IMG/VR virus record: IMGVR_UViG_2671181012_000010
DNA length: 7,672 bases
Origin: a virus
Taxonomy: Duplodnaviria > Heunggongvirae > Uroviricota > Caudoviricetes
Strand: one strand, 5' to 3'
Shown: positions 6,001 to 7,672 of the stretch, piece after piece
How the letters are laid out: the number at the start of each line of letters is the position of its first letter
How positions within the stretch are numbered: the first letter of the stretch is position 1
Program-made: the position numbers

Positions 6001-7672
6001 CTTTGACCATCACCTGATCAAGGTGTCCGGCCTTGTATATCCGCGCTGATTTGCGCCCGTCGGGCACAATTTGCAGATTGCCAATATCTTTAAGTTGCTC
6101 ATCAGCCAGCACGACAGGCGGTGTTTTATCTCCGGCAAGTTTTCCGTCCTGCTCCTGCCACTGTTTCGCGTGCGCCCACGCATCACTGCCAGCGAAAATA
6201 ATCACTTCCGTATCGGCGTGTTTTTTCCCTCGAGGCTGTTTTTTTAAGTTCGGTGCGCTTTTCATTTCTTACCTCTGCTGATCATCGTCATGTGGCTACC
6301 GTATTCATTGCGGTAAATATCCCCGCACATAAATTCGGGGTGAGTTTTGCTACTGGCAGTTAAGCCAGTATTTTTTGATGCCATTGAATTAATCTCCTGA
6401 AGGAGTCGTCTTAATCTTTATTTCCCGTTTATTTTTAGCCGTTATTGTTCGCCGCGTTTTTCTTCCTCCGTCATTAACCACACCGCCACATTGCTGGAAA
6501 GTTGTTTGATAAGTCCTGCAATAACAGAAAGGTCATGGTCGTCTATTTCTTCGTGGTTGCGTTCAATCATGCGGCTGATTACTTCGACCTGTTGCGCTTG
6601 CAGTGAGGCTTCTGCCAGTGTTATTTGCTGCATTACTGCACCCCCTTAATTTCATGATATTCAGAACAACAAAGGATTCAGTCATTGACGCATATTGCAT
6701 CATCACCCGATGCAGCAATCAGCCAGCTACCTGCCTTACCTGTAAGCTGCTTAATCAGGGCGAGCAATGACTCAATCTCACCCTCAGTCATTCCACCTGT
6801 GTTACCCATCATCAGAGAACAAATAAGTTCTGCCTGCATTGCGCTTTTTGCTGCTTCATCAACAGTCATATCGGAAAAATCACACATGAATTACTCCTCA
6901 TCCTGAATACATGTCACTGCGTGGATAATTACGCCGGATAAACCGGCTTTAGCTGATTTGTTAATTACTGTGCTGATTGCAGCCTGGACGTTTTCGGCCT
7001 TCACGTTCTGCGTGATGCCAACGGTATAGCCGCGCTTATTAACAGCACGGGAAAAGACGCGGAAGGTTTTAAGCATGAGTCACCTCCTGACGGATACGGG
7101 CGACAAAAATAAGATGTGCGTGCGGCAGCCGGGCGCGTGCTTCGCGCTCAGTGGCAGCGGTAACGGTGAATATTGCAATGCTGTCTGTCAGGCACTGCAT
7201 AAAGCGCCAGACAAAGTAAGGGCGTGCGGATACAGCCATGTGAAAGGCTCCCAATTTAATGTTAAGGAGTCTCGCTACTACGCTGCTAAACGTGGTGGCG
7301 AGACGTAACAGGGTTAGCAGACTGGCAAATTGGGAAACCAGCGAGCGCAAAGGCTCCCCCGTTACGCCCCGCCATAATGCGGGTATGGGTAGGTTTACGG
7401 ACACAAAAAAACCGCTTATCGGATATGGGCGGCTGTCCGCCAATTTATTCAGGCTGCTAAACCCGGTCGCCATGTGGGCGACTCCGGCATCATACAGCCC
7501 GAAAGAAGAGGCGATCAACATGTTTTTATCCATGTGATGCCTCCTGACGGATACGGGCGACAAAAATCAGATGTGCGTGCGGCAGCTGGGCGCGTGCTTC
7601 GCGCTCAGTGGCAGCGGTAACGGTGAATATTGCAATGCTGCCTGTCAGGCACTGCATAAAGCGCCAGGTGAA

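What the first reader, a model, noticed from the sequence alone, without database searches (positions are those of the whole stretch)
6442..7076. Cassette of three small proteins, two of them tandem acidic paralogs, directly upstream of the replication gene
The 69-aa and 63-aa ORFs are clear paralogs (shared LIKQL...WL block, acidic mid-section) with strong RBSs and tight packing after the 61-aa ORF. I recognise no family for any of them. Tandem small acidic proteins in the early/replication operon of a mobile element are the typical context for anti-repressors, DNA mimics, anti-restriction or anti-defence factors, or replication-control adaptors. This is my best candidate for an undescribed accessory function in the window, but the function is inference only.
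Basis: partly seen in the sequence, partly recalled or inferred. Interest (0 to 1): 0.7.

Follow-up and report, generated by a model that had tools for sequence, protein, structure and literature searches.

The report
Variable small-protein array in phage satellite
The three small genes are real, conserved genes of unknown function in an E. coli phage-satellite island (PICI type), lying between an antisense-RNA immunity switch and the island's replication gene at a position where related islands carry different small genes; they are reasonable candidates for host- or helper-phage-manipulating factors, but nothing here shows what they do.

Summary
On the minus strand, C (61 aa, 6891-7076, basic), B (69 aa, 6678-6887) and A (63 aa, 6442-6633, both acidic) have strong RBSs and are tightly packed. 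They evolve under purifying selection (dN/dS 0.10-0.21). A and B are diverged paralogs (28% identity), both in PHROG 1478; C is in PHROG 3672. No Pfam, NCBIfam, PADLOC or PDB relative was found. Models: A is a helical hairpin, C a beta-beta-alpha-beta fold; neither has a significant structural match.

Context reframes the finding. The element is a Gram-negative PICI-type satellite island. Directly upstream lies a P1 immI/P4-type switch: a C4 antisense RNA (7291-7379, 73 bits), its targets and an Icd-like ORF whose stop overlaps C's start by 8 nt. Downstream come a 40-aa remnant of a DUF4222/RgdR-like gene and then the DUF927 primase.

Across about 70 related loci, the Icd-to-primase interval holds a variable array of 1-5 small ORFs from several families. 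A occurs in 18/71 and C in 15/71, so neither is needed by every element with this primase. A-family genes also sit in the early-left operon of lambdoid phages.

Most likely these are immunity-gated accessory binding proteins. Conserved DNA mimicry is not favoured. Function is unproven; interest is moderate.

The parts
7526..7657 (-). C-terminal part of an upstream Icd-like ORF (copy 1). The gene runs off the window end. Its stop overlaps the ATG at 7533 of the next ORF by 8 nt.
   Evidence: NF033153 at 44.7 bits against a cutoff of 25. It is part of the 144-nt direct repeat 7524-7667 / 7067-7210, 94% identical. Junction sequence.
7489..7518 (-). Sigma-70-like promoter (TTGATC, 18-nt spacer, TATGAT) upstream of the RNA module. 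A consensus match only.
   Evidence: 9 of 12 positions match. One site was found against 1.9 expected in shuffles, so it is weak on its own.
7405..7495 (-). Upstream C4-target-like (a1/b1) and isrK/seqA-like element with a terminator-type hairpin and U-run.
   Evidence: Rfam c4-a1b1 32.4 bits and isrK 37.6 bits, both below gathering score. TTAGCAG at 7460-7454 and AAATTGG at 7446-7440 are complementary to C4 nt 60-66 and 47-53.
7291..7379 (-). C4-type antisense immunity RNA (relative of P1 C4 and P4 CI).
   Evidence: Rfam RF01695, 73.3 bits against a gathering score of 45, E 2.5e-13, full-length model match. MFE fold -45.2 kcal/mol, a long stem bearing two hairpins.
7249..7289 (-). a2/b2-type targets of the C4 RNA, covering the Shine-Dalgarno of the short Icd-like ORF.
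   Evidence: AAATTGGGA (7257-7249) is perfectly complementary to C4 loop nt 45-53. TTAGCAG (7289-7283) is complementary to C4 nt 60-66. The ATG lies at 7239.
7069..7533 (-). Icd-like ORF (copy 2). The long form is 154 aa from the ATG at 7533 and spans the RNA module. The short form is 56 aa from the ATG at 7239. The stop is at 7069-7071.
   Evidence: NF033153 at 48.3 bits against a cutoff of 25. RefSeq annotates the 465-nt form in L018 and L024. Translations.
6891..7076 (-). Gene C: 61 aa, basic (pI 9.74), beta-beta-alpha-beta fold, phrog_3672. Its ATG overlaps the Icd-like stop by 8 nt.
   Evidence: E 1.7e-22; pLDDT 91.6; dN/dS 0.21.
6678..6887 (-). Gene B: 69 aa, acidic (pI 4.05), the most divergent member of the phrog_1478 helical-hairpin family. 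Its RBS lies inside the last codons of C.
   Evidence: E 2e-12; dN/dS 0.11; close relatives only in E. coli elements.
6442..6633 (-). Gene A: 63 aa, acidic (pI 4.51), phrog_1478, two-helix hairpin (H6-29, H32-62).
   Evidence: E 1.3e-18; pLDDT 94.5; dN/dS 0.10.
6262..6384 (-). 40-aa ORF: an in-frame internal-deletion remnant of a 99-aa DUF4222/RgdR-like gene. ATGA overlap with the primase start.
   Evidence: It clusters with DUF4222 proteins. Its N-terminal 35 aa and C-terminal RGKK match the intact 99-aa gene in L018 and L024.
4127..6265 (-). Replication gene: 712-aa DUF927 primase/helicase-type protein. Last member of the co-oriented, overlapping gene chain.
   Evidence: PF06048 E 3.5e-40; phrog_1139 DNA primase E 3.9e-94.

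Best explanation
The cassette is one allele of a variable array of small accessory genes. The array occupies a fixed slot in Gram-negative PICI-type phage satellites, between the C4-RNA/Icd immunity switch and the DUF4222-primase pair. Shown from sequence: the genes form one co-oriented chain, Icd-like ORF, then C (8-nt overlap), B (3-nt gap), A, the DUF4222 remnant and the primase (ATGA overlap). The C4 RNA loop is perfectly complementary to the ribosome-binding site of the short Icd-like ORF. Inferred by analogy with P1 immI and P4: in the integrated state, C4 blocks Icd translation and read-through, keeping C, B, A and the primase silent. On induction, or on entry into a cell with no C4 RNA, read-through and translational coupling express them together with the replication genes. 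Inferred function: all three are too small and featureless to be enzymes, so they act by stoichiometric binding. A and B are acidic helical hairpins that probably dimerise into four-helix bundles. They have diverged on the family's conserved exposed acidic ridge, which would fit different binding specificities. Their target is more likely a host factor than a helper-specific or primase-specific one, because the family also serves lambdoid phages in their early-left operon. C is a small basic beta-beta-alpha-beta protein, probably a nucleic-acid binder or a partner of A. In this sample it was never found without an A-family gene.
For: Genes are real: dN/dS 0.10-0.21, like the primase at 0.08. 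Family is conserved: 192 profile hits, and every hit that carries an organism name is from Enterobacterales. Immunity switch: C4 RNA 73.3 bits against GA 45; 9-nt and 7-nt complementarities at the Icd RBS, repeated upstream; Icd-like NF033153; 8-nt overlap of Icd and C, as at the P4 cI-ORF/epsilon junction. The literature states that C4/isrK profiles hit several GN-PICIs, and describes P4 read-through control (PMC10111431). Element type: int, HTH regulator, Rha and GIY-YIG genes, Icd, primase, SSB, PerC; homologous cassette in CP-933C/EcCIEDL933. Variable array: in 71 primase-anchored IMG/VR loci the Icd-to-primase interval (0.5-2.3 kb) holds 1-5 small ORFs from several families. A occurs in 18 and C in 15. 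The same island site in another strain has C-A-DUF4222 without B. A comparable Icd/small-ORF/DUF4222 module from the O157 island matches 1459 of 5426 E. coli genomes, with four differently annotated replication genes. Not primase-specific: the identical A-like protein precedes a DUF927 primase in one Klebsiella locus and a D5_N/DUF5906 primase in another, and an A-like gene precedes a DUF5906 replicase. Phage use: the A family is the second gene of the PL operon in Fels-1 and seven Klebsiella phages. Folds: hairpin pLDDT 94.5; beta-beta-alpha-beta pLDDT 91.6. No enzyme or defence-protein family matches.
Against: No experiment or significant homology links any of the three to a target or activity. 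Fold matches are non-significant: best E 1.4 for A, 0.015 for C in PDB, 0.005 in BFVD. C4 gating is inferred from complementarity and analogy, not measured. C4 is absent at gathering score from 7 of 11 related loci tested, including the EcCIEDL933-type, so gating is not general to the cassette. In 41 of 53 A-anchored loci the gene sits just upstream of a primase, which also fits a replication-linked role. The C-with-A co-occurrence rests on few independent lineages. Dimerisation and host-directed targeting are inferences.
Confidence: 0.5

Rival explanations
1. Helper-prophage derepressors, like P4 epsilon or P1 Ant. C, and possibly B and A, bind and inactivate the repressor of a resident helper prophage, so the satellite triggers helper induction. 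Array variability and paralogs would track different helper immunity types.
For: C holds the position immediately downstream of, and overlapping, the Icd-like ORF. That is where ant sits in P1 immI (established knowledge) and where epsilon sits in P4 (junction). The related isrK-orf45-anrP unit of Gifsy-1 also controls an antirepressor (PMC4825925, listed; not read in full). Hypervariable content and tandem paralogs would fit specificity for diverse repressors.
Against: No sequence similarity to P4 epsilon, and no antirepressor family hit in Pfam, PHROG or NCBIfam. Described GN-PICIs are induced by their helper through AlpA rather than inducing it. A-family genes sit inside the repressor-controlled PL operon of lambdoid phages, an odd place for an antirepressor.
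Confidence: 0.17
2. Replication-module accessories. The proteins regulate or assist the island's own replication, for example by copy-number control through binding the primase (like P4 Cnr) or by origin binding through the basic protein C.
For: They are co-transcribed and translationally chained with the primase. 41 of 53 A-anchored loci have a primase within 3.5 kb downstream. P4 has Cnr (DUF5375) just upstream of alpha. Fels-1 and KPP5665-2, the phages with an A-like gene, use helicase-plus-primase replication modules. An iteron-rich candidate origin lies just past the primase.
Against: A is absent from 53 of 71 and C from 56 of 71 loci carrying this primase family. The same A-like protein precedes different replicase types. 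In phages the gene is in the opposite (PL) operon from the replication genes. The slot next to the primase is held by DUF4222 or DUF5375-like proteins, not by A, B or C. No similarity to Cnr.
Confidence: 0.15
3. DNA-mimic anti-restriction or anti-nuclease proteins. A and B mimic DNA, like Ocr, ArdA, Gam or gp5.9, to block restriction enzymes or RecBCD on entry or during replication. This is a special case of the best explanation.
For: A and B are small, helical and acidic, with net charge -7 to -8.5. Helix 1 carries a conserved acidic ridge at columns 3, 7, 11, 17 and 24. They would be expressed at entry, before C4 accumulates (inference). The annotated early-left operon of phage KPP5665-2, which carries an A-like gene, lists no Gam.
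Against: Charge is modest and not conserved: family pI has a median of 4.83 and reaches 6.9, and net charge ranges to -0.1. The nearly invariant residues are mainly hydrophobic, plus Q15, G47, W52 and E56. Window A itself has lost three ridge acids. No known DNA mimic appears among the listed PDB fold matches, and the PDB sequence-profile search found nothing.
Confidence: 0.1
4. Rop-like cofactors of the antisense RNA switch. The 63-aa hairpins dimerise like ColE1 Rop and modulate the C4-target kissing complexes, and C binds the RNA.
For: A has the same size and helical-hairpin architecture as Rop, and both are acidic (own knowledge of Rop; model). An antisense kissing system lies immediately upstream. 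C is basic, and its best fold matches are RNA-binding ribosomal proteins eL20/LX (TM 0.80-0.85, not significant).
Against: No co-occurrence. A-family genes are present in L020, L109, L130 and L010, which lack C4 at gathering score, and absent from L074, which has it. The family also occurs in lambdoid PL operons. The PDB profile search found nothing at E<=1, and Rop is not among the listed fold matches.
Confidence: 0.04
5. The ORFs are not functional genes: chance ORFs or decaying remnants.
For: Some elements carry pseudogenised copies: an internal stop and a truncation in O157:H7 MB41-1. The neighbouring DUF4222 gene in this window is a deletion remnant.
Against: dN/dS of 0.10-0.21, strong RBSs, conservation across Enterobacterales genera, and confident compact folds.
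Confidence: 0.02

Closest known systems
P4 left-operon small proteins (epsilon, ORF151, Cnr) downstream of the CI-RNA/eta immunity region
   Same: Same order: AlpA-like regulator, an immunity RNA inside an Icd-like or Bro-type ORF, several small proteins, then the primase. The first small gene overlaps the end of the Icd-like ORF by 8 nt in both.
   Different: BLAST finds no similarity of C, B or A to epsilon, ORF151 or Cnr, and the primase is DUF927-type rather than P4 alpha. Sizes differ (61-69 aa against 95-151 aa). Functions are untested here.
P1 immI module (c4 - icd - ant) and Gifsy-1 isrK-orf45-anrP
   Same: C4-family RNA above the Rfam gathering score. Duplicated a/b target pairs, one set at the icd ribosome-binding site. 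An Icd-like ORF (NF033153). A downstream gene overlapping the icd stop.
   Different: The downstream gene is a 61-aa basic protein with no antirepressor homology. The operon continues into replication genes, as in P4, rather than ending with ant.
CP-933C / OI-51 / EcCIEDL933 (cf-PICI) genes ECs1578-ECs1582, including RgdR (ECs1581)
   Same: Homologous cassette in an experimentally studied island: Icd-like, C (WP_000920682), an A-like 63-aa gene (equated with ECs1579 from its position two genes upstream of rgdR/ECs1581 and a Fels-1 annotation note), an 80-aa ORF, RgdR/DUF4222, then a DUF927 primase.
   Different: That island has one A-family gene plus an unrelated 80-aa ORF instead of B and A, an intact RgdR, capsid genes, and no C4 at gathering score. 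Only RgdR has a reported phenotype (PMC3378721).
Small early-left (PL) operon proteins of lambdoid phages (lambda CIII, Kil, Gam, Ral as the known examples)
   Same: A-family genes occupy the second position of the PL operon, next to the repressor gene, in Fels-1 and Klebsiella phages. The known lambda examples are small proteins that bind host factors (established knowledge).
   Different: No homology to any of them. The resemblance is positional only.
ColE1 Rop/Rom
   Same: A 63-aa acidic helical hairpin next to an antisense-RNA control system (own knowledge of Rop).
   Different: No sequence or listed structural match and no co-occurrence with C4.

Membership tests
PHROG phrog_1478 (unknown function) | Significant full-length match to the family HMM | tested here: met
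   A: E 1.3e-18, residues 1-62 on profile 1-62 of 63. B: E 2e-12, residues 5-58. Phage member KPP5665-2 GP35: E 2.7e-35.
PHROG phrog_3672 (unknown function) | Significant full-length match to the family HMM | tested here: met
   C: E 1.7e-22, residues 1-55 on profile 1-55 of 61.
P1 immI / P4-type antisense immunity module (context of the cassette) | C4/CI-family RNA | tested here: met
   RF01695, 73.3 bits against GA 45, full-length.
P1 immI / P4-type antisense immunity module (context of the cassette) | Complementary target sites upstream of the RNA and at the icd translation start | tested here: met
   TTAGCAG and AAATTGG(GA) occur at 7460-7440 and again at 7289-7249. The second set covers the SD of the ATG at 7239. 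The Rfam c4-a1b1 and isrK hits are below gathering score.
P1 immI / P4-type antisense immunity module (context of the cassette) | Icd-like ORF with a translationally coupled downstream gene | tested here: met
   NF033153 at 48.3 bits. 8-nt overlap of the Icd stop and the C start.
P1 immI / P4-type antisense immunity module (context of the cassette) | RNA-dependent repression of downstream expression | not testable with these tools
   Needs reporter fusions or Northern blots.
Antirepressors / helper derepressors (P1 Ant, P4 epsilon) | Sequence or profile homology to a known antirepressor family | tested here: not met
   No BLAST similarity to P4 epsilon. No Ant, KilAC, BRO or other antirepressor hit in Pfam, PHROG or NCBIfam.
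Antirepressors / helper derepressors (P1 Ant, P4 epsilon) | Binding and inactivation of a prophage repressor | not testable with these tools
   Requires induction assays or interaction tests.
P4 Cnr (DUF5375) copy-number regulators | DUF5375 homology and position adjacent to the primase | tested here: not met
   No similarity. In related loci the adjacent slot is held by DUF4222 or DUF5375-like proteins, not by A, B or C.
DNA-mimic proteins (Ocr, ArdA, Gam, gp5.9) | High, conserved negative surface charge | tested here: inconclusive
   A and B have net charge -7.3 and -8.5, but the family median is -5.3 and ranges to -0.1, with pI up to 6.9. An acidic ridge is conserved in the family yet partly lost in A and B.
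DNA-mimic proteins (Ocr, ArdA, Gam, gp5.9) | Structural or sequence similarity to a known mimic | tested here: not met
   No PDB sequence hit at E<=1. The 50 listed Foldseek matches all have E>=1.4 and include no DNA mimic.
Gram-negative PICI / cf-PICI satellites (the element) | Ordered zones: integration (int plus AlpA/HTH), Bro, replication (primase, SSB), late | tested here: met
   L001 has int, an HTH regulator, Rha, GIY-YIG, Icd-like, primase, SSB, ProQ and PerC. Zones as defined in PMC10111431. The late zone of this island has no recognised capsid or terminase gene, only an antiterminator Q homolog.
Gram-negative PICI / cf-PICI satellites (the element) | Helper-phage-dependent induction and transfer | not testable with these tools
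   Shown for relatives EcCIEDL933 and EcCIMP1 in the literature, not for this island.
T7 Gp2 / RNAP-epsilon (YkzG) fold | Beta-beta-alpha-beta fold with an acidic RNAP-binding strip | tested here: not met
   Weak fold match (4lk0_M TMq 0.54, E 0.14; 4njc_A TMq 0.56). C is basic (pI 9.74), opposite in charge to the acidic strip of Gp2 (Gp2's charge is from own knowledge, not tested here).

The most novel reading that the evidence does not exclude
The interval between the Icd-like immunity gene and the DUF4222-primase pair may be a previously undescribed hypervariable 'early accessory island' of Gram-negative PICIs and cf-PICIs. It would be gated in some lineages by a C4 antisense RNA and stocked with a dozen or more uncharacterised families of 55-130-aa proteins that are swapped and duplicated in an arms race. 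These include phrog_1478, phrog_3672, phrog_2196/5796-like and others. Within it, basic C and acidic A/B would form a new binding module that disables a host defence or nuclease, or a helper-phage regulator. The B/A paralogs would extend target range.
Probability: 0.25. Interest if true: 0.65.

Novelty: new member of a known kind. Interest (0 to 1): 0.4.

Why it matters
PICI-type satellites are common: a comparable Icd/small-ORF/DUF4222 module from the O157 island matches 27% of complete E. coli genomes. They affect phage spread, defence and virulence regulation; the neighbouring RgdR and PerC-family regulators act on the LEE. The small genes between the immunity switch and the primase have no assigned function in the literature searched here. 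Showing that they form a variable, purifying-selected array shared partly with lambdoid phages makes them concrete candidates for new host- or helper-manipulating proteins. The homologous genes in the tractable model island EcCIEDL933 (ECs1578/ECs1579) make the question directly testable. If they turn out to be ordinary replication helpers, the result is of specialist interest only.

Tried and rejected
- **Pfam, NCBIfam and PADLOC scans of A, B and C.** Nothing above threshold; the best hits were chance-level, such as TetR_C_15 at E 0.043 and DruA at E 0.014.
- **PDB sequence-profile searches with both family alignments.** No hits at E<=1.
- **Foldseek of the A model against PDB.** Only generic helical hairpins (HisKA DHp, designed bundles, Nup58), all with E>=1.4.
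- **Foldseek of the C model.** Against PDB, eL20/LX ribosomal proteins gave TM 0.80-0.85 but E>=0.015; T7 Gp2 and YkzG were weak. Against BFVD, only unnamed small phage proteins appeared, E>=0.005. None justifies a functional transfer.
- **AFDB50 fold library.** Not available.
- **BLAST of window proteins against P4 epsilon, ORF151, Cnr and alpha.** No similarity.
- **Profile-profile test of whether the neighbouring F4 family (phrog_2196/5796-like) is a distant paralog of the A family.** Probability 34%, pairwise E 4e-4; inconclusive.
- **Rop-like cofactor of C4.** Rejected for lack of co-occurrence.
- **Recent tandem duplication of B and A.** Rejected: they share 28% identity, and B is no closer to A (28-30%) than to family members from other genera (about 38%).
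- **Literature.** Searches for locus tags, accessions and PHROG ids found only a CGH paper listing ECs1578-1580. Searches for DUF4222/DUF5375 found nothing functional beyond RgdR.
- **First search for related loci attempt with the 60-sequence alignment.** Failed for lack of a conserved stretch; a 16-sequence subset worked.
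Full report
**1. The observation.** All relevant genes are on the minus strand. C is 61 aa at 6891-7076, B is 69 aa at 6678-6887, and A is 63 aa at 6442-6633. Each has a good Shine-Dalgarno: AGGAGG, GAGGAG and AGGGGG respectively. A and B are acidic (pI 4.51 and 4.05), and C is basic (pI 9.74).

A and B align over 54 residues at 28% identity (E 1e-7) and both match phrog_1478, while C matches phrog_3672. No Pfam, NCBIfam or PADLOC family is hit. Between this window and a copy about 8% divergent at the nucleotide level (L024), dN/dS is 0.21 for C, 0.11 for B and 0.10 for A. 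The primase gives 0.08.

Two corrections are needed. First, a 40-aa ORF (6262-6384) separates A from the primase. It is an in-frame deletion remnant of a 99-aa DUF4222/RgdR-like gene that is intact in L018 and L024. Second, the families are already catalogued, without function, in PHROGs and RefSeq.

**2. What the element is.** The region matches chromosomal islands in 248 of 5426 complete E. coli genomes. In strain RM10042 the island lies between yicC and dinD. It carries int, a hypothetical gene, an HTH regulator, Rha, a GIY-YIG nuclease and Icd-like genes. These are followed by the three hypotheticals, the primase, SSB, ProQ/FinO, PerC paralogs and an antiterminator Q homolog.

This is the four-zone plan (integration, Bro, replication, late) described for Gram-negative PICIs (PMC10111431). 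A homologous cassette occurs in CP-933C/OI-51 of O157:H7, which is the capsid-forming PICI EcCIEDL933. There the order is Icd-like, C, a 63-aa A-like gene (probably ECs1579), an 80-aa ORF, RgdR (ECs1581, DUF4222), a DUF927 primase, SSB, PerC and then capsid genes. No paper found assigns a function to ECs1578-1580.

**3. What lies immediately upstream.** Rfam finds a full-length C4 antisense RNA at 7291-7379 on the same strand (73.3 bits, gathering score 45). It also finds sub-threshold isrK-like and c4-a1b1-like elements at 7405-7495.

The C4 loop UCCCAAUUU is perfectly complementary to AAAUUGGGA at 7257-7249. That site is the Shine-Dalgarno of a 56-aa Icd-like ORF starting at 7239. A second 7-nt pairing (TTAGCAG) lies at 7289-7283, and the same pair of sites recurs upstream at 7460-7440. 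This is the a1b1 - c4 - a2b2 - icd layout of P1 immI, and it is related to the P4 CI/seqA system.

The Icd-like ORF (NF033153) ends 8 nt after C's ATG. The P4 cI-ORF/epsilon junction has the same geometry. A 144-nt direct repeat (7067-7210 and 7524-7667, 94% identical) shows that the Icd-like C-terminus is duplicated. A 154-aa ORF starting at 7533 spans the RNA module and is coupled in the same way to the upstream copy.

Hence C, B, A, the DUF4222 remnant and the primase form one chain downstream of an antisense-RNA switch. Sequence shows the chain and the complementarity. That C4 silences it in the integrated state is inferred from P1 and P4. C4 is not universal: it reached gathering score in 4 of 11 related loci, and not in the EcCIEDL933-type.

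**4. The proteins.** The A family is small. Only 14 representative clusters reach E<=1e-3 by single-sequence search of 1.8 billion proteins. A profile finds 192 proteins, and every hit that carries an organism name is from Enterobacterales: Serratia, Rahnella, Erwinia, Klebsiella, Pluralibacter, Pantoea and Salmonella.

AlphaFold2 with a 60-sequence alignment gives a two-helix hairpin (H6-29, H32-62; pLDDT 94.5). PDB matches are generic hairpins with E>=1.4. Nearly invariant residues are mostly hydrophobic, plus T5, Q15, G47, W52 and E56. Helix 1 carries a conserved acidic ridge at columns 3, 7, 11, 17 and 24, which is partly lost in A (Q3, A7, L11) and in B.

Family pI has a median of 4.83 and ranges up to 6.9, so strong acidity is not a conserved property. 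B has close relatives only in E. coli elements and is the most divergent family member. It is not a recent duplicate of A.

C folds as beta-beta-alpha-beta (pLDDT 91.6). Its best PDB matches are the N-terminal domain of ribosomal proteins eL20/LX (TM 0.80-0.85, E 0.015-0.1), with weaker matches to T7 Gp2 and YkzG. In BFVD it resembles many unnamed small phage proteins (E>=0.005). No match is significant. C-family members in Klebsiella, Pluralibacter and Pantoea are all basic, with pI 9-11.

**5. Comparative context.** Fifty-three loci were anchored on an A-family gene (genomes and IMG/VR).
- 41 have a homologous primase within 3.5 kb downstream.
- 4 are lambdoid-phage early-left operons.
- Only one other locus (L013) has tandem A-family ORFs.

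In Fels-1 and seven Klebsiella phages the A-like gene is the second gene of the PL operon. It overlaps the preceding phrog_2583 gene by 8 nt and lies on the opposite side of the repressor from the helicase and primase genes.

In 71 informative loci anchored on the primase, and so unbiased for A and C, the Icd-to-primase interval is 0.5-2.3 kb. It ends in DUF4222 in E. coli-type elements, or in a DUF5375/Cnr-like protein in other genera. Before that it holds 1-5 small ORFs drawn from several families. A is present in 18 and C in 15, and C was never seen without A.

The same chromosomal site in strain 2012C-4502 has C-A-DUF4222-primase without B. Another island has the A-like gene directly after Icd, with four other small ORFs and a DUF5906 replicase. 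In Klebsiella, the identical A-like protein precedes a DUF927 primase in one locus and a D5_N/DUF5906 primase in another. A comparable Icd/small-ORF/DUF4222 module from the O157 island matches 1459 of 5426 E. coli genomes, with four differently annotated replication genes.

The cassette is therefore one allele of a variable accessory array at a fixed operon position. It is not a fixed partner of this primase.

**6. Mechanism.** I commit, at about 0.5, to the following. These are immunity-gated early accessory proteins that act by stoichiometric binding. A and B are dimerising acidic hairpins with diverged specificity. Their target is more likely a host factor, because the family is shared with lambdoid phages. 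C is a small basic nucleic-acid binder or a partner of A.

Sequence shows the operon chain, the C4 complementarity, purifying selection, the folds and the accessory distribution. Three things are inferred: the silencing by C4, the binding mode and the class of target.

The rivals are:
- P4 epsilon/P1 Ant-like helper derepression (0.17; positional analogy only);
- replication control (0.15; weakened by the distribution);
- DNA mimicry as a specific sub-case of the best explanation (0.10; charge is not conserved);
- a Rop-like cofactor of C4 (0.04; no co-occurrence);
- non-genes (0.02).

**7. Comparison and novelty.** The closest known systems are the P4 left operon, P1 immI, Gifsy-1 isrK-anrP and the EcCIEDL933 replication-proximal genes next to RgdR. 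Membership in phrog_1478 and phrog_3672, and in the C4/Icd module context, is met. Membership in antirepressor, Cnr, DNA-mimic or Gp2 families is not met or is inconclusive.

The proteins are new, uncharacterised members of a known kind: small early accessory proteins of phage satellites. The most novel reading not excluded is that the whole interval is an undescribed hypervariable counter-defence or hijacking island of PICIs (probability about 0.25). Interest overall is moderate (0.4): this is a well-defined, testable candidate, but with no evidence of an unusual mechanism.

Noticed in passing
window 7291-7379 (-), with 7405-7495 (-) and 7249-7289 (-): A full-length C4 antisense RNA (Rfam 73.3 bits), with duplicated complementary target pairs (TTAGCAG / AAATTGGGA) upstream and at the Icd-like ribosome-binding site. 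This is a P1 immI/P4-type immunity switch directly upstream of the finding.
   Followed up: yes
window 6262-6384 (-): The 40-aa ORF overlapping the primase start is an in-frame internal-deletion remnant of a 99-aa DUF4222/RgdR-like gene. About 59 codons are missing. The gene is intact in L018 and L024, and RgdR of O157:H7 is a reported LEE regulator.
   Followed up: yes
window 3824-4096: An AT-rich intergenic region just downstream of the primase stop holds 8 of the window's 11 GCGGATA motifs (0.94 expected by chance in the whole window). It also has long inverted repeats, such as a 20-nt perfect pair at 3824-3843 and 4077-4096. It is a candidate iteron-type origin of replication.
   Followed up: partly
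window 7067-7210 and 7524-7667: A 144-nt direct repeat (94% identical, spacing 457 nt) duplicates the C-terminus of the Icd-like ORF together with its 8-nt overlap junction to the next gene. Strain 2012C-4502 (L018) has four Icd-like copies in tandem, so this immunity region expands and contracts.
   Followed up: partly
window 676-978, 1900-2202 (-), 2162-2629 (-), 2646-3095 (-): Downstream of the primase the island carries two PerC-family regulator paralogs, a ProQ/FinO-family RNA-binding protein and an SSB. The PerC paralogs may matter for virulence regulation in STEC hosts. A third PerC-like reading frame (507-971) overlaps one of them.
   Followed up: no
window 1063-1449 (+): A 128-aa ORF on the opposite strand, with no family hit, is conserved in E. 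coli (L001) and in an Erwinia piriflorinigrans island (L008, E 1e-44). It is an uncharacterised conserved cargo gene.
   Followed up: no
L018 9058-9261; protein P0005 and relatives: Many E. coli copies of gene A are 67 aa because of a 12-nt tandem duplication that repeats the residues RMIE in helix 1. It is a common length polymorphism of the hairpin.
   Followed up: no
L008, L010, L013 (related islands): Other small-ORF families in the same interval also occur as tandem paralogs: the F4 family twice in Erwinia and Pantoea islands, and the A family twice in Ca. Symbiopectobacterium. Profile comparison of F4 with the A family was inconclusive (probability 34%).
   Followed up: partly
L019 6792-7170 (O157:H7 MB41-1 island at clpS-cspD): In this related PICI both the C gene (truncated) and the A-like gene (internal stop) are annotated as pseudogenes. 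The DUF4222 and primase genes remain intact.
   Followed up: no
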